A DNA stretch of 64,000 bases from the human T2T-CHM13v2.0 reference genome, Homo sapiens (GCF_009914755.1 NC_060927.1), one strand, 5' to 3'; shown: positions 20,901 to 64,000, numbered from the stretch's first letter. The notes: a model not told the origin generated them from the letters alone. A program made the numbers and translations.

Positions 20901-23321
20901 TATGCCCAGATAATTCTCCAAAGGTCCCAGCTAGATTCTGTTAATATCAAGAAGGATTTAGAAGTAGAAGAGACCCCTTCTGTGTTTAACAGACAAAAAG
21001 TTATCCTTGAATGTGAAGGAAAAAGTGCCATTGGGTGGAAAAGGCTGGGAAGGATGAACAGAAGTTGAATGGAATGTTCCCTTGTAGAACACCATGGTTC
21101 CTCTTCTCATCTACGTCACTGTAACGCCAGCATGTGCACTTCCACATGCCAGCGAGCAGTAATGACAGCACGCTTTCAGTAAAGCCAGGACAGCTGTGGC
21201 TGACATCATCTTCCTTCTTCCCCCAGGGACGAACCTAGAAGTGTGGCACTGTTCCTCTGTAGTACCAGGCAGCCTATGACTGAGGCTCAGGGCTGTAATC
21301 TGGCCTGGCCTTAAATCCCCCTCCTTGGTCTCAAAAGGTTAAGACATCATTTGTTCTCTGTGCTGCTCCATCAGCAGATAGGGACCACCTAGGACCTCCG
21401 GGTGTTTCCTTCCCAGATCAAGTCATTTAAATAAGTGCAAACTGGGTGCCTGCTAAGAGCCAGCAGTTTTGGTATAGAGCCAGACCTTCCCTATGCCTAC
21501 ACCTGAAAAATGAATGATTACATTGTACAATGTATGCTGTGGGACTGTCCAAAGTATCAGAGCTGAATAAGCTTAGATATGGTGCAATCAAGTGAGTGAG
21601 TCAGCTCTGAAGTGGAGCTCTTTGTCAGGACCTCTTGTGTTTCCAGTGGACTCACCTTTCTCCCCTTCCATCCTTTAAGGGACTGGAGGGAGCTGCCCAA
21701 GCTGCCTGGCCAGATGTCTGTGGACTAAGTGTGACTGATGGATATAGGGGACTGATCCTACTTGTATCTGACGAAGAATATTGAATGATGTTAGAGAAAA
21801 TCCTAAATGGTGCCTCTATTCAGATGTAATTATTCTTACCAGCAGATTCTACTTTCTGAGAAGCTAAAATTAGAAATTAAATTTGGTAGGCTAGGGTGAC
21901 ATGTCCTCAAACCCGCTAAGGCAGGGATGTGAAGCAGGAGGATGTCAGACAGGAGCCTGGGGCACAGCAATGGACACAGTAGGCCTGGGATCATTCATTC
22001 AACAGTTGACCAGTGCCTCCCATGAGCCAAGTACTGTTCAGGGATGGGGAATACAGAGGTGCATACTATAATCTCTTTAAAAATAACGTGTTCGTTTGTA
22101 TTTACTGCTCTTATCCATACAGCCTTCTTATTAGTACATATGTACAGAGGAATGTCTTAAATATTTATCAGATACTATAGGTAGAAAAATAGAGGTGATT
22201 TGTGGCTTTCATTATTGCTTGAGTTTTTAATATAATAAGCATGTGTTAAATTCTGTTTTTAAAAATCCTCTAAACGTTTTTTTAAACAAAGCCATAGCAG
22301 GGGAATCCCATGATTGGTATCCCTAGGTCTGAGGTATGTTCCATTGTACATTGGAGCTTTGGGGAGCGGATGGAAGAAGGTGTCTGGTGAATGGGACATT
22401 TTAGTTTATGGAAGAGAAGAGAAAAATTCCCTGACTACAACTGGTTTCATTGTAACTTTCCATCTGCTATTGGAATCAAGAACTAAAAACTTATCAGCAG
22501 GCAGCAGTCAGTATCGCATGTCCTTCCTCTGCATTCGTGCCCACGGAGCTCCTGATGGAGATGGGTGAGTACAGGGAAGCAACTAATCTCACCCCTCCTG
22601 CTCATTCCTGAGAATGGGAGTGCTAACTTCTCACTGAGTGTGGGAGCTGTGCACATTTCTTCTGCCCAGGAAACATACTGAAGAAAAAAAGTCTCTTTTC
22701 TTGAACCTTTTTTCTTCCTTTCCCAACTTCACCACCACGGCAGCCCTCTTCATTCACATAGCTCTGACCAAATATCCTCAGCGAGTTAAGACAGTTACGG
22801 TTGGAACTCTCCGTGTCTGGCTCTTCCTTCTTCCCTGCATCTTTGGTCCCCAGTCAGGAGGTCTAATGGTAATATCCAGTGATTTTTCTAAAGAGGAATC
22901 AGTGGTTATATTATACAAGGGGTGTGTGCGTGTGTTTTGGGTGGTGAATACAGAGCAGCGGTTAGGACCATAAGAAATAAGAGAAATGGAATGTGGCATG
23001 ACCGCTGCCAGTTCTGATATTTTTGAAATTGGTAATTTAAAATAAAGTAGTTGGTTTACTTACTTAAGCCTCACATCTTAACCGTCCTTCCTTGATCTGG
23101 AGTTCCTATCGCCTACCTTTATCAATTAAAAATGCCTTGAAAATGAATCCTACTATGTTAAAGCATACGGTTAAGTAGATAGAAGCCCAATTGCCTGGGA
23201 TGAAGTCCCAAGTCTGCTCATTACTATATATCCTTGGGGAGGTTACTCAACCCTGCTTCAGTTTCCCCTCTGTAAAATTAGAAAATGAGTCAGTGTGAGA
23301 ATTAAACAAATTAATACATTA

Positions 23322-44682: not shown

Positions 44683-45434
44683 ATGTCTCTTCTAATCAAA
44701 GATGGCTTCCTTGAGGTGGTAGCAGATTGGAGGGTGTTCTGGAACCTTTATAAGCTTTAAAAGGAAAGGTAATTAGTGAAGTTGGACTTGAAGAAGAGTG
44801 AGATTCCCGGGCAAGGGCAATTTACCTAATCTTGGCCTTTGTTCCTCTTTGGATTGGTCCCAGGACTGTGCTGGCTTTCTGAGCATCTTTTAGTCTGGAG
44901 ATAACTGAGACCTGGAGGGGCCACTCAGGGATGTTCCTAACTGGTGTGGTGTGGGGCTGGGGATGGAATATGGCAGCTAGATGTTGTCAAAGGTCATTAT
45001 AGTTCACCTTAAGTTCTTGCCTTTAAATGGCTTTCTGAAAATCACCAGAAGCATGAGAGATCCAGTCCCTGTACCCTCTCCCCCCTTCCTAATCCCCTAG
45101 CCATGGCAAGCAGAGTGGGGATGAAGGAATATATCGTACCCCTGACTCAGTTCTGCCTGGAGGCTCCCTTCCCATCAGCCTTTCAGCAGAATGGAGATTA
45201 GGGGAATGCGTGTGGATTTACTCTCATGAGTGTGTCCCATCTTTACCCCTTCGGAGTTGGTGGACAGCCCAACTCCACCAGTAGGAGGAAGAAGCAAAGC
45301 AGCAAAGGGCTTTAGGTAGTGGACATACCACCCAGGCATGACAAAAGGGACTCTGTGGAGCACACACTTCAGGAACTGTTTTTGAACCCCCCCATTTATG
45401 ACTGCACCACTTAAACACAGACAAGAAGCTTTGT

Positions 45435-48400
45435 TTTGAGAATTAGGACAGTTTATTGTTTGACCAACATGCTGAGTCTTTTCCACATTTTACACAGTTT
45501 AATGTGAAATCAACATGGCGGCTATGTCTTCTGAGCCCATAACAGATGGAATTGCCACCCTCTGTGCTCCTCACAGCCAATCACTTTAAAGGGATGGGTG
45601 AGGGGAAAGTGAGGGGAGAAGTGGACACACACCGCGAGATGCAGGCTGGCCTTCAATGCTATGGAGGCTTCCCACCTCCTGAAGGAACCATCTAAACCCC
45701 TGCTGCAAGGATTTCCTGATGAAACCACACACTGCTGGGAGTGCCAACCAGACAGGGGTCTGGAGTCCAAGGAGTTTGCACATTGAGATCCCAAGGTTTT
45801 GGAACACCTAAATAGTTCATGTCAAACAAAAATTCAAAGGGTGTCCTGATCTGTGTGGGTGCCCATGACAATCAATCAGAGTAGACTTGGGGACTGGCCC
45901 TTGTGCAGTAGAGGAGCCCAAAATACCACCAATATTCTCACTCATATGCTGGGAAGAACCTAGTGTCCTAACCAAAAAGAGTAGAGATGGTCTGAGGAAC
46001 ACACCCACACACAGCAGTCCTTGCTGTGTAATAAATATGGAGTCACATTTGTTCACACACAGGGCAGCAATGGATGAAAAATGGAAACTTCACTGGTTCT
46101 GATCACTCCTAACTTGCTGGGTGATCTTAATAAGCAAGTTGCCCTTCTCCATCCTGGTTTTCCTGCCTGTAGACAGGAAAAGTTGTGACAGCTCTGCTTC
46201 ACATAGCTGTAACAAGGTGACAATGCCTCACATTCTTTGGGGAGAGGCAGTTCGGAAACGAGTGTGCGCACAATCTGCTCGGTTGATGCACACAGACATC
46301 CTTCTGTTCAGCTGCCCCTCAAGTGGCTCAGACATGCCTCACTGTCCTCGGCTACCTGGTCCCATCTCATCCTGACATCCTCACCTGCCTTCCATCTTGT
46401 GAAGGAATGAGGCTGCTCTACCTGCAGGATGCTGAAGCCAGGAGGGCCATCCCTTTATTGTCACAACTGGTATCCCAGGGCAGGGCCTCCCCGCACTGGC
46501 TAGCCACCAGGATGATGCAGACGTTGCACCCCAGATGTGTCTGCACTCTTAACTACCACCATTTCAATCCTTGTTTCTGTTGCCAGAGATACTGAAACTG
46601 GTCTGGCCATTGCTCCCCTCAGACCTGGGAACATGACTGAATGTTTAAGGATGACAAGAAGAGAGCAGCGATAGATAGCAAGGAGGCCTCTGACCAAGGG
46701 AAACTGCTGCCAACAGCTACCAAGCCAACTAGCCTTGGATCACACAACTGCAGCCATGGTGCTCATGATTCTGATGTCACACCTTCATGTTGATGTATGT
46801 ATGATCACCCAGCAAGTTAGGAGTGATCAGAACCAATGTGTTTCCACTTGTAAATAGGCTGTTTGCTTTTTCCATCTTACACTCAACTTTCCTGATGCCT
46901 GCAGAACAGGAGCTTTGTTGATAAGCTTTTAAGATTCACCCCCTTCACTCCCACCATCCCCAAAAAAGAAGGCCAAGAGGATCCTGCTAATCTGCCAGGT
47001 CACGTCTAGTCTTTGGGGAGAGGGACTGAATTGCTCAATTGAGAACATTTCCTCAAAGGAATCCTCCAATTTGCCCTCTGCTAACCCATCTGGATTCAGC
47101 AAAGATGCAATGCTCTTGCTGGGGTGCTGAGGCAATGCCATGACATCTTCTTCAAGAGCACCTAACAGTTTATTATGGAACCTTAACTCTGTGCCAATTC
47201 TACCTGCAAGCAAGGGGACAGGGATGGTGCCTGCTCAAGACAAAAATCAGGGAACCAACAACTTCTGAAAAAGAGGTCTGGCTGCCTTTCCACACCCCAG
47301 GAAGGGAGGGGCGGAAACCGCACGTGCCGAAGGGAGCGCCATGGAACCACTGAGATGGGAGGATGGGAGGAAGCCACCCTCAGCCTCAGAGGCCAAGGGG
47401 CTGGGGAGAACCCAAACTCAAAGAGAGGATGTTGTGTGCATGCTAGGAAAGGCAGGACTCACTAAGGCCATGTCAAACCAAATGCTATCTTTTACTGCTC
47501 CTCTAGGCCAGGATGGAAACACAGTCCACGGTGCCTTGGATGTGTGTGCCCCTGAGAAGGGAACTGAGTTTCTACTGTTTTATGGGATGTTTTTTTAAAA
47601 AAGCTAATCTTTAGTGCCAAGAAAATAAAAATCTACCATACGTTCATTCACTGAGACCCAGTGCAGATTCCTGTAAATGGGGCGGTCTCAGAGGCCACAG
47701 GTGATGGCCCCCGCTGCCAACCAGGCAGGACACTGTCATGTGGACTCCTGTAAATTCTCTCGAGGTAAGTAAGCACTCTTCCAACAAGCACCACTTGGGG
47801 GTGTGCCCATGGTGGGGGGACACTGGCCCACACAGGCATGCACACCCGTGCATATAAAGTACATAGAGAAATGGTGGAGATATTCCCGTGGGCTATGTTT
47901 GCCTGTAGTTTAACACAACTATGCATTATTTTATTGATGGCAAGACAATCACAAGTTATTTGACAATATTAAGTATTTCTTATTTCAACACGTTGCAGTA
48001 CTTTTGAATTTCCAAAACTTATCACAATGCAAGTTCCAACTTGAGAGCAGGAGAAACAAGAATATACATTGAGCACATGTATCTCCGTGAGGATGTGTTT
48101 GTGGAAGGTGTATACACAAGTCTATCTCTATATATAATTATGTACACACATATAAAAACTAAACACATGACATCTGAAACACGTTCAAACATTGGTCCTT
48201 GCCTTCTGCAAGAGGTGCTCAGTGGGATCCTGCTTCCTCTCTTCTTCACCTGAAGATAAATTCCTTGCTAGAGATGAGCTCTGGCATACAGCCTCCTAGG
48301 CAGAGGGTGTGTGGCAGGCCCACTGCACAAATATCAGTCCTGCCAGATTCTGCTGCACTTACTGCCTGCCATTTCAGATTAATTTCTGAGAAGTTTCAAA

Positions 48401-49981
48401 ATTCATTCCAACGACCTTGTGGAGTTCAGCCCACCATACCCCAGATGGTCATTCATCCCATCTATGACATGCCCAGCAGCAGCCTGGAGGGAGAGCCAAT
48501 GACAGCAGGGAGGGTGGGGTTTACATTTTGGCCAGACTCACTGCCCATTGCACCTGGCTCTGTGCAGGCTCAGGGCAGTGAGTCTGAGTCTATTTGGAAT
48601 GCTGGCCAAGTAGGTTATATCACTTAGTGGGAAGAGAGAGTTCTCTTCAGAGACTTTGCAGATTCTCAGGACTAAGCCATTCTCAGGAATGAATCAAAAA
48701 TGGAAGAGATGGCTCTCTGGGGGCAAGCAGCCTTCTGGAGACCCCACCTGAACCACATCCTCAGGTGACCACAGCGCAGCCACAGTAGCCACAAAGATAT
48801 GTCCACAAAGACTTCAACTGCGCCATGCCACTGGGGTGAAAACATAGCAACAAATCAGCTTTTCCAGAAAGCACTCAACAATATTAGCAGCTGAGGCTCT
48901 AAGAACATGGATCTTTCAAGGTGGTGGTTCTGCAGACAACACCCCCCCCCCCCCCGCCTCCCCATCACAGAGGATCAACTCCAGGTGGTCCAGCTTCCCT
49001 GACATCCAGGAGGAAGGCTTCAGGATGGCACACTGCCCAACATCACACACTGAGTTTCTTAGACTTGGCCCAGGCATGTGTACTGACTGCTGGGTGGGCT
49101 GGTTAAAATATTTTCAGAAGTACACATGGCACCCCAGTCTATAAACCACGCACCACGCAGCTGCAATTGCCAACAGCACCTCGTCCTTCTGATGGCCTCT
49201 TGCTCTGCCAGTCCCTGAGGGCACAGAGAACACAAGGTTGCCTGTACCCTCAACCCCCTTCAAGGCTTTTCAGGGAAAGAGAAGGAGAGGTGGGAGCAGT
49301 TCCTCTGGGGGCTGCTGCCGGGCTGCCTAGAGCCCACAGACCTTGGTCTCAGCTCCACACGAGGTTGACGACCCACTCTGGCCATGGAAAGACAAGAGTC
49401 AGAGCTACCTTTTCAGAGGCTGATGTGTTCAACCAATGTTTGATTTAACTGGAGTAGGGCCTAGAGAGTGGGGCCAGATGGCCCCAGACTGAAGCCTAAT
49501 TAATTTGCTCAGTTAATTGTTTTAATTTATTGGGCTGGGGATAGGAGGAAGGCAGAGGTGATGAATGGTTCAAAGAGAACAGGAAGGAGGAGGTGTGTGG
49601 AAAAGGTTCTCTATAAGTTTACAAATATACAAAAACAAAAAGCACATCTTTCAAATAAAAATGACTACATTTTTATCTGGCAAAAAATTGTATACACATG
49701 ATTTAAATTTTTTTTAAATTTTAACAGTTTTTGGCAATCTTAATAAAGTACAATATATTACAACCAAACCAAAAAATAGTTGTTTAAGTAACAGCCGTTA
49801 AGAGTGATGTGATCCCTGATGCCCAGCCTCCCTCCCCATCCCACCCTACTCCTAAAGACAGAGAGAAAAGAAAAATCCTCCCATCTTGATAACTCGGTTC
49901 CCTCCCCCCTTAGGAAGCTAGCCAATAGGAAGCAACACAACAAGCAAGGAGTGTCATGGGAAGCCACAGGTCGGCTCTGCA
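45435..49981 (-). other. RAB6B: RAB6B long 3' UTR (~4.5 kb)
   Basis: Follows the stop at 49982-49984; minus-strand AATAAA at 45452-45457 (also 47169, 47930, 49526); the distal end is inferred. Confidence 0.7.
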
Positions 49982-50046
49982 TTAGCAGGAGCAGCCGCCC
50001 TCGCTGGCCGGGGGCTCCTGGGGTTTGTCCAGCTTGATGTCGATCA
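49982..50046 (-). CDS. RAB6B: RAB6B last coding exon (C-terminal CXC prenylation motif)
   Basis: (M)IDIKLDKPQEPPASEGGCSC*. Confidence 0.96.
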
Positions 50047-51975
50047 CTGCAGGGGGACGGGCTAAGGAAGATGACTCTCCTGGACAAGCTGCCACCCCAC
50101 TTAGCCCTGTGCACTGTACCCTTTGGCTACTGCTCTGTTTCTCTGCAAACACCTAGGGACTTGGCTCTTGGTTTGGCTGGGCTAGGAAGGATGCAATACC
50201 AACTCCACCTTGCCTCCTCTTCCCTTCACCCGTCCACTTCCCCCAGCGCCTGTCCACCCAAGCAAAGCCTGTCTTGCCTGGGCCGTGGGATCACCATCTA
50301 TACCAAGGCCAGGGAGTCCCTTTCCCAGAAGCCTTCCCTCGACCAGTGCTCAAATGCCAGCTCCCAGCCCTGGCCTCAGCCCAGTTACCTGTCAGCCCCA
50401 CTCAAAGTGCAATGGAGATGAAGAGCCTGCTGGGTTCACATCTCAAAGCACAGGGGTATGTGGGCCTTGCCTAATTGGCAGCAGGAGCAAACCCTTCAAG
50501 CTTTAGTCAGAACACATCACTTAGATCCTGAGGATGGTTACTGTAAGAAGCCACATCCATGGGGCCTAAGCACAGCCCCCTCGCCAGCCCTTTCCACTGG
50601 TGCCCCCGGGGGCTGTGGGCTAAAGAAGCACTTATCAGAACCACCACAGGGACTGGTTCCAAATGCACAGCCAGGCTGGCCCTCTGCCTTCCTCATCGGG
50701 CTCAAAACCAACACTGTGAGATTTTAGCCTTGCATCAAACCAGACCTAATTATAGCTGAGGATCAGGCCCTTTGATACCTCACAGAATTGCTCTTCCTGG
50801 ACAGGGATTGCCTTAAGACAGGGGTGTGTGGGGTGTGGTGGTATAAGAAACACTGTTTTGGAACTTCTTGCTGGCATCCTAAGGATGCTTTTGTGGCTCC
50901 TATTTGAGGACAACAGGAGAGGTTCTTTTGTTTTAAGTACTATGAAAAGCCATGCTTCTCCTGAAGTTCACATTCTCTTTCCTTGCCTTGGCTGTGAGGA
51001 TGCTCAGAGCCAACTTTTTGGCCACCTCTAACAACCATGCGGCCATGGCATACATTTTGAGTATGACTTTATCTCTGACTTTTCTTTGCTTTTCCTACCT
51101 TTATTTTCCCCATGTGTGTGTGTACACACATACACATACAACTTTATCTTGTATGTATATGTATCTTATACCATGGCAGCCTATAAATGAGTAAATAGAT
51201 ACTAAGCCAGTGCCTTCCTTCCCACTGCCCACTGCAGCCCACCTTTTGTTCTCTCTACCCTAGTCAAGCAGCCTGCTTCTCTACTGCCCATCATTTTTGG
51301 TAAACCCACTGCCAGGAATGCCCTGCTGTTTCTCTCTGCCAGCTGCAGTTCTATGGCCCATGCCGGCAGTGCAGTCCTGTTCTGTATTGCTGGCCTGGGC
51401 ACAGGCCTCCTTGAGGTCTCCTGGTCTTCTCTGAGTGCCCCTCTGAGCCCAGCCAGCTCTCTCTCAGCATGGTGGCTTCCCAAAGCCAGCTCTGGTGACA
51501 ATCATGTCACACTCTGCTACAGAAACAAAGTGTCCACGGATTTCTCACTCTGGCATTTAAGGCCTCCCCATTTAGGGTCACCCCAAGCACCTGTTGACGC
51601 TAGCTTATCCCCTTCCCTCAATCACACACCAAGGCTCCACCAACCAGATTTTCCCTGCTTTAAACACGTCCTATGCTTTCCTTCTTTCCTTTGTTCATGC
51701 TGTTCTTTCCTTCTAGAAGTGATGCTCCCTCCCCCACACCCAGCCTTCCTCCCCATCTCCACCTGTAAAAATGTCCTCATTCCTTGGGCCAGGGTGCACG
51801 CATTAGTGGCCTCTCCTGCTGAGAGCTACCTCACTTCCACATTAGACCTCGTGCAGTGGGGAGTAAAAGAGCCACCTTCCAGCTGGGAAGCTGAGGTGCC
51901 CAGGTACAAACCCAAGGCTATCTTGACCCCAGCCTTCTACTTTCACTGACCTGGCTGTGCTAAGCCCCTTGTGGA

Positions 51976-52706: not shown

Positions 52707-55700
52707 GCCCAGCTCTTCCGCTAGGAGCCTTCCCAAAGGCTCTCATTTAATGACACCTCCTTCCTTGTTACGCCACATGCTGCTGAAATGCAGTGCTCAG
52801 GGGCTGCCCGCTGATTGAGAGGACAGGGAAGAATGACTGGACCCATGTCTAAATAATGTCCCAGAAGGGGAAACTCACGGTTTCTCACAAGCCTCAAGAG
52901 GTTAGATATGTGCCTTTCCGGCAGGCATGGCCAGAGCACACCCGCCTCTTCCCTCTGGGTCAAGTGTGGCCCATCACGGGCCACATTCAGTGCCCAATGT
53001 CCCTTCTCCCTGGTTCCTGGAAGTGATGGGTGGGCCCAGACAGCCTGTTACAAACTTACCCCCTACTGCTGGATATGCTTCCCCAATCCCAGTGCCTCTG
53101 ACTCTACTGCAGCACAATCCTGTCTGTATCTGGAATGTCAAAGCACACCACAGCCCCATCAGAGAGTGCAACAGGGCTGTGGAATCCAGTCATTTGGATG
53201 TGGTTCCAGCTCTGAATTAAGGAGCTGGGAGGCCTTGAGCATGCTCTATCTGGTTTGCGGCGTCACTGTCCTCACCTGCTTAGAGCCACTTCATGAAGTG
53301 CCCACACTACTGCTCTTTCTTTGTGTAAGCCAGCCTTGTTCAGAAACAGTCTGGGGCCCATGTGATGGGCGCATACTGTATTTGGGTAGAAAGTGGGGGT
53401 TGGGGGGTTGTGTATGTAGAACCAGTAAGGGGCTTATGGCTCTACCATTTGGTGGCCCCTTGGCTCCTACTTTGTTGAGAGCAGACCAGTGGAGGGTGCT
53501 GCTGGGCAGAAGTATTGGCCAGAGCGGCCCTGAGGGGTCCTCCTGTCTTGAACGTGAAGAAGAGGTGCAGCAGCCCCCCATCTAGACCTGCAAGCAGCAG
53601 ACGGAAACCTCATGCCACACATTCACCAAGTCCTGAGCTGAGCAAGTGAGGCCAGGTGTGAACAGTTTATACAGCGCCACAAAGCAGTGCTTCTGTGTGG
53701 CTGCTCTCAATGTGGAACACAATTATGAACATGACCCCAAAGCACACACCTTCAAAACACCTGGATTTGGACTGTGAGTAAGCAGAAATGCCAACACCCC
53801 ACCCCGAAAGAAGCAGAATGACGGCTGCCTCTGCCTGGTCCCTCTGGGACCTCTGGTGGCCGCTCTAGCACCTGCCTCGTGAGAGGCCCAGCAAGCTGGC
53901 TCCTGGGCAGAAGTGAAAGGATGGGGGTACATCTACCCAGATGAGGGGACCCCTTAGCTAGAAAAAGGGACACAGGTCACAACACCCTGTGCAGTCTGTT
54001 TGCAACCTGCCATGTATCCTTTCTCCCAAGGGGCCCAAAGGTCAGTGGTAGCTGGATGAAACGCTAGGCATACCAGGACGATGACGAGCTCACTGTCACC
54101 CTGCACTCAGCCCAGTCTGACCTGACTGTGGGCCCAGCCTGGAGCCCTCAACAGCGCGACTCTGGGAGAATGTGAATGAAACGATCACCACTCACCCCGG
54201 CCAGTGTGCCACACCTTGGGAGCTGGTGGGATGGAGAGCGGGCAGTGCAACCCTTCCCCTTGCTGGCAGGCACAGCGGAGATCGCCTGCACCTTGTCTGC
54301 CCCTCTCCCTTGTTCCTGCTCCTATGTTTGCCCTTCAGGTTGGCTTCTGTATGTTCCTGGAACCTCAAAGGAGTCCCATGTGACAGGTGATTCCACAGGG
54401 GCTCTCTCCTGAGCTCTGGAGCCTGTCTCTGCTACTGAGAGCCGTGGGGTGCCCTAGTTTAAGTTTCTGAGCCTCAGTTTCCTCATCTGTGATTGGAGTC
54501 TCATAACTGACCAACCAGGAGATACTCCTCAAACCCCCTCCTCTCGGCCACTGCTTGTCCTCTGGTGACACACAGACCGTGGGACTGCTGGGGCACCTGC
54601 TCCTTGGTGAGCCTTCCTGACCCCCCCGGGGGGTGGGTCTCGAGTCTGCTCTGAGAGCTCCTTGAGCAAGGCTGGAGAGGCCTAGCTTCCCTCCAGGCCT
54701 GTGTCAGGCTCCCCCTTGCTGCAGCCCTGGGACTCCTGGTGTCCTGCCCGCCCTGCCCCAGCAGCTCCATGAGGCCTCCAACATTAAGCTGTGTGCTTCT
54801 TTTGCTTTTGATTCTCATCAGCCCAAAGGTGCCCTTCCATCTTCCCAGGGCCCTTCTTTGATCTGTCAGGGATGTCTACCCTCAGAGGCCTATAGGATCA
54901 GTGGGGGATGTTGGAGAGCTGCTGTGTAGGGACAGGTCCACTGTAAAGGATGCCAGCCAGGGATCTGCATGCTTGTTTTCTGGTGGCTTACTCAGGCAGG
55001 GACATCTGACTAGATGCAGGGGAGGCCCAGGTGTGGGCAATGGCTTCCCCTGCTGAAACAGTTTTCATCTGATTCTCTCAAATGCCCTTAGAGGGACAGT
55101 GTCCCACATGGAATAGGGCTGGATATGGAGGAAGCAAGCCTGAGTGTGAATCCTAACTGTAACTTACATGCTGTGTGACACTGGGCAAACCAGACTACCT
55201 CTCTGAACCTCAGTTTCAGCATCTAGGTGTCTCTTCAGGTTGGGGCTGGTTTGTGGGTGATGCGCAATGGTCCCACAGATCAGTGGGGAGCCTCAGGAGC
55301 TGTTCAGGGCTGGGTAGAGAAGGTGGGCGGGACAAGGAGGGGGCATCTGTCTGAAGGGGGGAGCTGTCTTGAGTAGACTGAACCACGTTGAGATCATATC
55401 CCCAGTGACAGAGACTTCCCTGCAGTGGAGACTCTGCCTGTGTTCATGAAACCCATAAACATGCTCGCTGTAAAGAAGGGCAAAGTCGCTGTTTCTCACT
55501 CCCCACCCCACAGCATCACTCTGTGCACACCCCTTTGGTATCTTCCTGCTATTCTGGAAGAAGAAGTAGATGGTTAGAGCCAGACGGGGGCTCCAAACCA
55601 TAGGGTTCAGCTGCATCCCGCCTAGAGGAGGCCCCGTGCCATTCGCGGCAGACCAGGGAAGGCTGGGCGGGGACTGGGCGAGTGTCTGTCCACTGCACTA

Positions 55701-62837: not shown

Positions 62838-63609
62838 CTGTTAGAGAAAAGCACAGAACGGTCAAAATCAAAAGGTCTCATGCAAAGGGGCAAAAGCCTA
62901 GCGACCACAGGTGGTGGCATAACCAGCAAGAGGGGACGCTCATGTCAGGTCTAATGTGGCCATGCTCTGTCCTCCCTGCCCCTCCCTGCTACCACTCAGC
63001 GGCTCTCTCACTGAGGGATCAAGCTGAGGAAAGATGAGGGTGGCCTTTATAGGGTGAGATCTTCTCTGGAGAGGGCAAGTGCTTCAGAAGCAGTGAGAGC
63101 GCAGTGGTGAGGAGGCCTCCCCAGGAGCAAGGCCACTCAGGCCACTCAACGCACATATCCTGCCCTCCCCACCTGGACTCCCTGCCTTGTTCCCTTCATG
63201 GCCTAACCTGCAGCTTCCAAAGCCTCTTCCCTCTGCCCTAAAGCATGGGCCTGGGCTCAACACTGACCTCGGGAGGGTGGGAGGCAGGGGGCAGGAGCAG
63301 GCAGCTTGCTGCTGTGTGGGTGCAAACAGCAGCATGGCTTTTCTCAGGTGCAGGCACTGCAGACCACCCAGAGTGGCCTCTCGCTGGGAGGCCCCACTGG
63401 CTCTTTTCTCCCCAAGCCAAAACACTGGAAGCTGTCACCAGCTCCCCTGTGCCACACCTATGCCTCTTCTGCCCTGGCACCTGTGAGAGGCAGCCAGCCT
63501 TGTGGCCAGATGGCCAGGACCCACCACTCACTTGCTGTGTGGCCTTGGGCAGGCAACCAACCTCTCTGGGCCTCACAGGCACCCGGTACCTGTCAGTAGG
63601 ACTGAGATG

Positions 63610-64000
63610 CTGTCAATGTAAAATGGAGATATCACTGCTATGTAATCAATAATAACAAAGACTTGGACACAGCCTGAATGTCCACGGCACTAAATAAGCA
63701 TAGTGTGGTATATCCATGTGATTAGAACCCTTGGCAGCTGTTAACAATCACATTCTTGAAAAAATATTTAAGGATTTGGGGAAACGGTTATCCAGTTAAA
63801 AAAACAAATAAACAAAAAACAGGTTATAAAACATCATGTGGCGAGTGATCCCAATTAGATTAACTCAAATAGATCTATGAGTATTTTTCATGTTTTCTTA
63901 GACACTGAAGTGAAGGGAATCTGCTAACATGTTAATAGCATCACGGTCTGAATAGTGACAGAGCATTTTCTTTCCTTCATTACACTCCTTCATTACACTT
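63610..64000 (+). mobile_element. Old L1 (L1ME-like) 3' remnant
   Basis: AAAGACTTGGACACAGCCTGAATGTCCA...TGTGGTATATCCATG motifs. Confidence 0.5.

What the first reader, a model, noticed from the sequence alone, without database searches (positions are those of the whole stretch)
46082..46846. Perfect 33-bp long-range inverted repeat in the RAB6B 3' UTR
Seen: TGGTTCTGATCACTCCTAACTTGCTGGGTGATC (46094-46126) is the exact reverse complement of 46803-46835, 676 nt away; pairing extends past a small bulge (TGGAAAC 46082-46088 with GTTTCCA 46840-46846). It is not Alu-derived. The left arm lies in heavily decayed MIR-like sequence, so a perfect match is unexpected. Competing local hairpins exist (GATCAC..GTGATC within each arm; AACTTGCT 46111 with AGCAAGTT 46133). 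Inference: either a selected ~40-bp mRNA duplex or switch (Staufen/ADAR substrate, localisation or stability element in a neuron-enriched transcript, present only in the long poly(A) isoform) or a template-switch footprint.
Basis: partly seen in the sequence, partly recalled or inferred. Interest (0 to 1): 0.75.

Follow-up and report, generated by a model that had tools for sequence, protein, structure and literature searches.

The report
Unique inverted repeat in RAB6B 3' UTR
A short stretch of the RAB6B gene's untranslated tail is repeated backwards about 700 bases away, so the RNA can fold on itself there; it is most likely a leftover of a DNA copying slip, and a function is not excluded.

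Summary
46094-46126 is the exact reverse complement of 46803-46835, with a 676-nt spacer. Homology runs over 46079-46132 / 46796-46849: 55 columns, 49 identical, and all 6 differences lie outside the 33-bp core. The pair is unique in the whole assembly, is not Alu, and its spacer is single-copy, so it is not a repeat-family or transposon feature. Both arms lie in the annotated RAB6B terminal exon. In the sense RNA they are predicted to form 10 bp, a 1x2 internal loop, then 36 bp (-82 kcal/mol, pair probabilities about 1). No inverted similarity remains beyond the arms.

Best reading: a one-off local inverted templated copy (template switch), with the RNA duplex as a by-product. A 200-kb control block from chr2 held a comparable genome-unique inverted pair, so such footprints are not rare.

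Not settled: the age of the copy and any selection on it, because no other mammalian genome was available. The differences cluster in the flanks (P=0.018), which fits either a conserved core or error-prone ends. The MIR claim is only weakly supported. The searched full texts report no editing, Staufen binding or duplex at this site. The idea of a switch between this duplex and the local hairpins has no thermodynamic support.

The parts
46079..46132 (-). Left arm on the + strand, which is the 3' arm of the duplex in the RAB6B sense RNA. The perfect core is 46094-46126.
   Evidence: Pair probabilities are about 1 for 46079-46088 and 46091-46126. Similarity to a MIR consensus is weak: Smith-Waterman p=0.015 for the arm alone and p=0.009 for 46060-46260. 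The profile HMM is not significant.
46796..46849 (-). Right arm on the + strand, which is the 5' arm of the duplex in the RAB6B sense RNA. The perfect core is 46803-46835. It also lies inside the SRPRB alternative exon 46587-49768 on the + strand.
   Evidence: one search reports 90% identity over 51 nt. Its flanks show no MIR-like or inverted similarity.
46133..46795 (-). Single-copy spacer, which is the loop of the predicted long-range duplex.
   Evidence: A whole-assembly BLAST of 46130-46799 finds only the sequence itself. There is no residual inverted similarity between the inner flanks: p=0.37-0.75.
46454..46459 (-). AATAAA hexamer inside the loop. If it were used, the transcript would keep the 5' arm and lose the 3' arm.
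   Evidence: Hexamer scan. Usage was not tested.
45452..45457 (-). AATAAA hexamer 22 nt upstream of the annotated RAB6B 3' end (45430). It defines the long isoform that carries both arms.
   Evidence: together with the hub annotation.
46585..46587 (+). AG acceptor and first base of the SRPRB alternative terminal exon. It lies inside the loop, so on the + strand pre-mRNA the two arms bracket this 3' splice site.
   Evidence: The sequence CCTTGTTTCTGTTGCCAG|AGATAC and the hub annotation. The + strand arm duplex is -76.8 kcal/mol.

Best explanation
The two arms are the product of a single local mutational event. During replication or break repair, about 54 nt were copied in reverse-complement orientation from a template about 700 nt away on the same chromosome. 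This is template switching of the FoSTeS/MMBIR or polymerase-theta templated-insertion kind. The left arm is weakly favoured as the source. Because both arms fall inside the RAB6B terminal exon, the longest mRNA isoform by default carries a very stable long-range helix: 10 bp, a 1x2 internal loop, then 36 bp, closing a loop of about 660 nt. That helix is an incidental by-product. It may well be bound or edited by dsRNA-binding proteins, but it did not arise for that purpose and need not be maintained for it.

Shown here: the repeat, its uniqueness, its sharp edges and its predicted folding.

Inferred: the mutational mechanism, the direction of copying and neutrality.
For: - The exact 33-bp inverted match and the 55-column homology.
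- Only these two copies exist in the 3.1-Gb assembly, and the spacer is single-copy. A repeat family or a transposon with terminal inverted repeats is therefore excluded.
- No inverted similarity survives inside or outside the arms: 6 comparisons, p=0.36-0.80, against p=0.001 for the arms themselves. It is a discrete patch, as a templated copy would be.
- Base-rate control: in 354.6 kb of sampled human DNA, 5 of the 60 longest perfect inverted-repeat rows (23 bp or more, within 2 kb) were unique in the sample. They belong to 3 loci: this one, a chr2 pair and a 25-bp hairpin. The chr2 pair is also unique in the genome: 112 bp, 96% identity, spacer of about 950 nt.
- In print, template switching creates perfect reverse-complement stems in one step. 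Patterns of up to 59 bp are reported, and the authors say a longer source-target distance is possible (PMC8794818, passages). [quoted passage not shown]
- The arms contain no CpG, so 0 changes in 33 bp is compatible with a neutral age of up to about 21-45 Myr (rates recalled).
- For direction: the left region aligns collinearly with a MIR consensus over 46085-46225 (p=0.009), while the right arm's flanks do not. At 46090 and 46093 the left arm carries the consensus base (alignment).
Against: - All 6 differences lie in the 22 flank columns and none in the 33-bp core: P=0.018 under uniform placement. If the 4 flank substitutions are ordinary later mutations, the probability of a clean core is 0.0014. 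Explaining this neutrally needs an extra assumption, either error-prone synthesis at the ends of the tract or a later re-copying of the core.
- Two of the 4 substitutions are G.U wobbles in the RAB6B sense RNA. This mildly fits preserved pairing, although it happens by chance with P=0.25.
- Inverted duplicated sequences are reported to be depleted from mature mRNAs (PMC7006430, abstract and passages). One that persists in a 3' UTR is therefore in a class under some selection.
- The template distance of about 700 nt lies outside the +-100-200 nt range in which template-switch events have been catalogued.
- The base-rate control rests on a single other example.
- The MIR evidence for direction is weak: the HMM gives E=0.68 in a 2.3-kb search space, and the non-arm part alone gives p=0.13.
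Confidence: 0.6

Rival explanations
1. A selected long-range mRNA duplex. Whatever its origin, the helix of about 46 bp is kept by selection in the long RAB6B 3' UTR isoform as a platform for dsRNA-binding proteins (Staufen 1/2, ADAR). It would affect localisation, stability or editing of a neuron-enriched transcript.
For: - The duplex dominates the MFE, the centroid and the ensemble, at -82.3 kcal/mol.
- Both arms are inside the annotated exon (hub annotation).
- The differences avoid the core (P=0.018; 0.0014 under a flank-calibrated clock).
- Two of 4 substitutions are G.U in the sense strand, and the sense-strand duplex is the stronger one: -82.3 against -76.8 kcal/mol.
- STAU1-bound 3' UTR duplexes are often long-range. 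1332 of them span more than 100 nt, the main peak of spans has a mean of 252 nt, and some span kilobases (PMC10164587, passages).
Against: - No conservation data could be obtained.
- No paper in the searched library links RAB6B to a 3' UTR inverted repeat (0 papers). The 6 papers holding both RAB6B and Staufen and the 4 holding RAB6B and 'RNA editing' were not relevant, judged from their titles and abstract starts.
- RAB6B occurs 0 times in the main text of the hiCLIP atlas paper, and its supplement was unreadable.
- A perfect helix of 33-36 bp is far more regular than typical STAU1 duplexes, whose median is 20 paired bases. Near-perfect dsRNA in mRNAs is generally selected against.
- The clustering statistic is modest, and non-selective explanations for it are in print.
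Confidence: 0.22
2. An old imperfect inverted repeat that was later made perfect. An earlier inverted copy of about 54 bp diverged, and a second template switch between the arms (quasipalindrome correction) then re-homogenised the central 33-40 bp without selection.
For: - The pattern of a clean core with diverged flanks.
- Homogenisation of the arms of imperfect inverted repeats by template switching is described (PMC8604942 and PMC13100816, abstract starts in the listing; PMC8794818, passages).
Against: The described cases have closely spaced arms. Nothing here shows two events rather than one, and this cannot be told apart from the other readings without outgroups.
Confidence: 0.1
3. A repeat-family artefact: either two independent MIR (or other interspersed-repeat) copies in opposite orientation, or the terminal inverted repeats of a DNA transposon.
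For: The left arm weakly resembles the MIR core.
Against: - Only two copies of the arm exist in the genome, and the spacer is single-copy.
- The right arm's flanks show no MIR similarity: its tiles rank 201 and 435 of 638, and the flank scores are at null level.
- The right arm shares the left arm's departures from the MIR consensus exactly over 33 bp.
- No matching target-site duplication flanks the arms (read).
Confidence: 0.03

Closest known systems
Template-switch mutations under the four-point model, which create reverse-complement repeats and RNA hairpins (Loytynoja & Goldman 2017, PMC5453318; Walker et al. 2021, PMC7954356; Monttinen & Loytynoja 2022, PMC8794818)
   Same: A discrete fragment is the reverse complement of nearby sequence. 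It creates a perfect stem in a transcribed region in one step. The fragment size of about 54 bp is within the reported range, which reaches 59 bp.
   Different: The source and the copy are about 700 nt apart. The published scans looked only within about +-100-200 nt. The result here is a long-range duplex with a loop of about 660 nt, not a local hairpin. The ancestral state was not observed here.
STAU1-bound long-range 3' UTR duplexes (hiCLIP atlas, PMC10164587)
   Same: An intramolecular 3' UTR duplex that spans hundreds of nucleotides, with few bulges.
   Different: No binding data exist for this site. The helix is longer and more perfect than is typical, where the median is 20 paired bases. 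RAB6B is not mentioned in the main text, and the supplement could not be read.
Inverted-repeat Alu pairs in 3' UTRs and other inverted duplicated sequences in mRNAs (Barak et al. 2020, PMC7006430)
   Same: An inverted duplicate within one mature mRNA that can form near-perfect dsRNA. This class is reported to be depleted from mRNAs, and its surviving members are often edited.
   Different: The arms are not Alu or any other repeat family. At 33-54 bp they are far below the >300 bp class discussed for MDA5. RAB6B is not listed in the 3 supplementary files of that paper held as text.

Membership tests
Template-switch mutation footprint (four-point model) | A fragment that is the reverse complement of nearby sequence on the same chromosome | tested here: met
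   A 33-bp exact match within a 55-column homology
Template-switch mutation footprint (four-point model) | A discrete patch, with no extended homology beyond the copied fragment | tested here: met
   Inner and outer flanks give p=0.36-0.80, against p=0.001 for the arms
Template-switch mutation footprint (four-point model) | Short range: the template lies within about +-100-200 nt of the mutation cluster, as in the published scans | tested here: not met
   The spacer is 676 nt. The scan ranges are quoted. The authors say longer distances are possible.
Template-switch mutation footprint (four-point model) | An ancestral or sister sequence lacks the copy, so that the copy appears as a mutation cluster on one lineage | not testable with these tools
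   No other mammalian genome is held. Scans of genome contigs and viral contigs for the 26-mer gave 0 hits.
MIR SINE (context of the left arm) | A significant match to a MIR profile | tested here: inconclusive
   An HMM built from 30 genomic copies finds 4 MIRs in the window but not this site at E<=1. With relaxed filters the best hit, 46106-46124, has E=0.68. Smith-Waterman against the consensus gives p=0.009 and rank 11 of 638 tiles.
Inverted Alu pair (IRAlu) | The arms are Alu elements | tested here: not met
   The arm has 2 places in the genome. Its median 12-mer count is 2, against 19-77 for Alu-type pairs.
DNA transposon or MITE with terminal inverted repeats | Multiple copies in the genome and a target-site duplication | tested here: not met
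   The arms and the spacer are single-locus. The flanking bases do not repeat (read).
STAU1-bound long-range 3' UTR duplex | An intramolecular 3' UTR duplex that spans more than 100 nt | tested here: met
   Met by prediction only: MFE, centroid and pair probabilities of about 1, plus the hub annotation of the exon
STAU1-bound long-range 3' UTR duplex | Cross-link or proximity-ligation reads that join the arms | not testable with these tools
   RAB6B occurs 0 times in the main text of PMC10164587, and its supplement was too large to read
ADAR-edited dsRNA | A-to-I sites within the arms | not testable with these tools
   No editing database is held. The 4 papers with RAB6B and 'RNA editing' were not relevant by title and abstract start.
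Curated RNA families (Rfam 15) | A match to a covariance model | tested here: not met
   An E-value scan of 45400-50100 returned only CopA at 47555-47639, with E=0.23 and 25.4 bits against a gathering score of 60. That is a chance hit.

The most novel reading that the evidence does not exclude
The inverted copy predates the primates, and its 10+36-bp helix has been held intact by selection as a dsRNA platform specific to the long isoform of the neuronal RAB6B mRNA (Staufen and/or ADAR). The differences between the arms would be tolerated only where they give G.U pairs, one small internal loop or the helix end. The same pair, read on the other strand, brackets the 3' splice site of an SRPRB alternative terminal exon and could influence its use.
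Probability: 0.15. Interest if true: 0.6.

Novelty: new member of a known kind. Interest (0 to 1): 0.35.

Why it matters
If neutral, it is a clean example of a templated inverted copy whose template lies several hundred nucleotides away. The published genome-wide template-switch scans did not search that range, so such events may be under-counted as a source of long-range RNA duplexes.

If selected, it would be a rare case of a near-perfect dsRNA helix of 33 bp or more, not derived from a repeat, that is tolerated in a mature neuronal mRNA. Inverted duplicates as a class are reported to be depleted from mRNAs. It would also be easy to test with compensatory-mutation reporters.

Tried and rejected
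- **Rfam:** the E-value scan of the terminal exon gave only a chance CopA hit.
- **Cross-species evidence:** none could be obtained. A 26-mer from the core gave 0 hits in genome contigs and 0 in viral contigs, and the assembly has no relatives held.
- **MIR identity:**
  - Single-sequence nhmmer of 46060-46300 against the window found only the sequence itself, the right arm and a weak self-palindrome.
  - The 16-mer core motif had 0 matches in the window at up to 3 mismatches.
  - The profile HMM gave no hit at E<=1, no hit with --max, and E=0.68 with relaxed filters.
  - Only the Smith-Waterman score was above null.
- **Remnant of a larger palindrome:** rejected.
- **Transposon with terminal inverted repeats, or two independent repeat copies:** rejected.
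- **Thermodynamic switch with the local hairpins:** rejected. The local folds are -23.8 and -43.3 kcal/mol for whole 111- and 131-nt regions, against -82.3 for the duplex, and the long-range pair probabilities are about 1.
- **Literature (full-text library):**
  - RAB6B + UTR + inverted repeat: 0 papers.
  - RAB6B + SRPRB + antisense: 0 papers.
  - RAB6B + Staufen: 6 papers, none relevant by title or abstract start.
  - RAB6B + RNA editing: 4 papers, none relevant.
  - RAB6B + alternative polyadenylation: 2 papers. The one I read in passages concerns an intron-loss isoform in melanoma, not the 3' UTR.
  - One search was swamped by general ADAR papers and gave nothing on RAB6B.
- **Supplements:** the Barak et al. 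files hold no RAB6B or NM_016577 entry. The hiCLIP atlas supplement was unreadable. The original hiCLIP paper was not held under the id I recalled.

Full report
**Observation**

The window sequence shows TGGTTCTGATCACTCCTAACTTGCTGGGTGATC at 46094-46126. Its exact reverse complement lies at 46803-46835, 676 nt away.
- A pattern search allowing up to 3 mismatches finds only these 2 places in 64 kb. None of 100 dinucleotide-preserving shuffles gave any match.
- A gapped alignment extends the homology to 46079-46132 against 46849-46796. It has 55 columns: 49 identical, 4 mismatches and 2 single-base gaps.
- Among the 25 longest perfect inverted repeats within 5 kb in the window, this is the only one that is neither Alu-type nor a simple repeat. 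The 12-mer copy counts support this.

**Uniqueness**

The window's own assembly is held (3.1 Gb).
- BLAST of 46060-46200 against it returns only the sequence itself and the right arm (90% identity over 51 nt, minus strand).
- BLAST of the spacer 46130-46799 returns only the sequence itself.

The tool warns that counts of repeats are lower bounds. Even so, a two-place result for the arm and a one-place result for the spacer rule out three things: an Alu origin, any abundant repeat family, and a transposon family with terminal inverted repeats. No direct repeat flanks the arms (read).

**Anatomy**

Similarity stops sharply at the arm ends.
- Smith-Waterman comparisons of the inner flanks (100, 200 and 330 nt) and the outer flanks (100, 200 and 400 nt) in inverted orientation all score at null level (p=0.36-0.80, 1000 shuffles each). 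The arms themselves give p=0.001. The pair is therefore a discrete patch of about 54 bp and not the surviving centre of a larger palindrome.
- All six differences lie in the 22 flank columns, and none lies in the 33-bp core. With six differences placed uniformly in 55 columns, a clean run of 33 or more occurs with P=0.018 (200,000 simulations).
- The arms contain no CpG, and the core is 48% G+C.

**RNA context**

By the hub's annotation, both arms lie in the RAB6B terminal exon (45430-50046, minus strand, coding sequence ending at 49982), which places them in the 3' UTR.
- Folding the sense RNA of 46050-46880 puts the long-range helix in both the MFE and the centroid structure (z=-7.7 against 20 shuffles).
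- In a 2171-nt context (45430-47600), the pairs 46079-46088/46849-46840 and 46091-46126/46838-46803 have probabilities of 0.70-1.0, mostly above 0.98.
- In the sense strand, two of the four substitutions are G.U wobbles (46081/46847 and 46093/46836). The helix is therefore 10 bp, a 1x2 internal loop, then 36 bp, at -82.3 kcal/mol. The 33-bp core alone gives -64.5 kcal/mol. The same arms read on the + strand give -76.8 kcal/mol. Two wobbles out of two transitions has a chance probability of 0.25, so I give it no weight.
Whole-region local folds are -23.8 and -43.3 kcal/mol.
- AATAAA/ATTAAA hexamers on the minus strand lie at 49531, 49526, 47935, 47174, 46459 (inside the loop), 45503 and 45457, the last being 22 nt from the annotated end. 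Only the longest isoform would contain both arms. Which sites are actually used was not testable.

**MIR claim and direction of copying**

I took a recalled 20-nt MIR core motif. It occurs 253 times in the assembly, against 0 for the reversed control. I fetched 30 copies and built a profile from them.
- The profile finds four MIR copies in the window (around 23176, 55109, 63514 and 54465) but not the left arm at E<=1. With --max it reports nothing. With relaxed filters its best hit in 45900-47050 falls at 46106-46124, with E=0.68.
- A Smith-Waterman alignment of the profile consensus to 200-nt tiles ranks the left-arm tile 11th of 638, with a collinear alignment over about 46085-46225. The right-arm tiles rank 201st and 435th.
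- With 1000 shuffles: whole left region p=0.009, arm alone p=0.015, non-arm part alone p=0.13 and out of register. The right arm's flanks are at null level.

MIR context is thus weakly supported. It gives a slight lean towards left arm as source and right arm as copy, and at 46090 and 46093 the left arm carries the consensus base. The direction is not established.

**Base rate**

As a control I fetched a 200-kb chr2 block, chosen without regard to its content.
- The sample was 354.6 kb in all: the window, the chr2 block and the 30 MIR loci. Of the 60 longest perfect inverted-repeat rows (23 bp or more, within 2 kb), 55 are Alu-type or simple repeats by 12-mer copy number.
- The other 5 rows belong to 3 loci that are unique in the sample: this one, a chr2 pair (45+27+26 bp), and a 25-bp hairpin in L023.
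- The chr2 pair is also unique in the genome: 112 bp at 96% identity, inverted, with a spacer of about 950 nt.

One comparable example in about 290 kb of other DNA is a very rough rate. It does indicate that local, locus-specific inverted duplications at spacings of about 1 kb are an ordinary feature of human DNA.

**Literature**

- Template switching is documented as a one-step source of perfect reverse-complement stems, with patterns of up to 59 bp. The authors note that longer source-target distances are possible (PMC8794818, passages).
- The process may maintain apparent secondary structures without selection (PMC5453318, passages).
- The genome-wide scans searched only about +-100-200 nt, so this event could not have been catalogued there.
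- STAU1 binds many long-range 3' UTR duplexes: 1332 span more than 100 nt, the main peak has a mean span of 252 nt, and the median number of paired bases is 20 (PMC10164587, passages). RAB6B is not in that paper's main text, and its supplement could not be read.
- Inverted duplicates are depleted from mature mRNAs (PMC7006430, abstract and passages). RAB6B is not in the three supplementary files of that paper held as text.
- Searches pairing RAB6B with inverted repeat, Staufen, RNA editing, SRPRB antisense or alternative polyadenylation found nothing that bears on this element. These searches cover full text only. Unread supplements of duplex-mapping and editing studies may hold relevant rows.

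**Weighing**

The anatomy (a discrete, unique, inverted patch of about 54 bp) and the control favour a single templated inverted copy, with the RNA helix as a by-product (0.6).

The one feature that resists a simple neutral account is the clean core between diverged flanks.
- Using recalled rates of 1.0-2.2e-9 per site per year, zero changes in 33 bp allows a neutral age of up to about 21-45 Myr.
- Four flank substitutions would imply about 45-100 Myr, and the probability of a clean core at that age is 0.0014.
- Three explanations remain: the flank differences arose with the event (error-prone synthesis at switch points, recalled from the MMBIR literature and not read here); a later template switch re-copied the core; or the core is under selection.

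These cannot be separated without outgroup sequences, which were not available. I therefore keep the selected-duplex reading at about 0.2.

**Verdict**

It is most likely a new example of a known mutational product, lying at an unusually long template distance. A functional role is plausible but untested.

Noticed in passing
window 46585-46587 (+), with the arms at 46079-46132 and 46796-46849: The acceptor of the SRPRB alternative terminal exon (46587-49768) lies inside the loop. On the + strand pre-mRNA the left arm is intronic, about 455 nt upstream of the acceptor, and the right arm is exonic, about 210 nt downstream. The duplex (-76.8 kcal/mol on this strand) would therefore bracket this 3' splice site.
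   Followed up: partly
window 46587-49768, both strands: By the hub annotation, the SRPRB alternative exon (+) and the RAB6B 3' UTR (-) overlap tail to tail over about 3.2 kb. This is a far longer potential intermolecular dsRNA than the 33-bp repeat. No paper in the searched library holds RAB6B, SRPRB and antisense together.
   Followed up: partly
L049:6547-6646 and L049:7652-7751 (G000:C2:100166500-100167759): A genome-unique inverted duplication in the chr2 control block: 112 bp at 96% identity with a spacer of about 950 nt. Its differences are spread evenly, with perfect runs of 45, 27 and 26 bp.
   Followed up: partly
L023:42-66 and L023:90-114: A perfect 25-bp inverted repeat with a 23-nt spacer, unique in the sample, beside a MIR copy. 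It could be a hairpin created by a short-range template switch.
   Followed up: no
window 46042-46155: The neighbourhood of the left arm is weakly self-palindromic: nhmmer matches query positions 12-130 to the minus strand at 46155-46042 with E=0.0048. This agrees with the local AACTTGCT/AGCAAGTT hairpin.
   Followed up: no
window 23176-23321, 55109-55224, 63514-63640, 54465-54492 (+): Four MIR SINE copies were detected with the profile built here, at E from 4e-12 to 1e-3.
   Followed up: no
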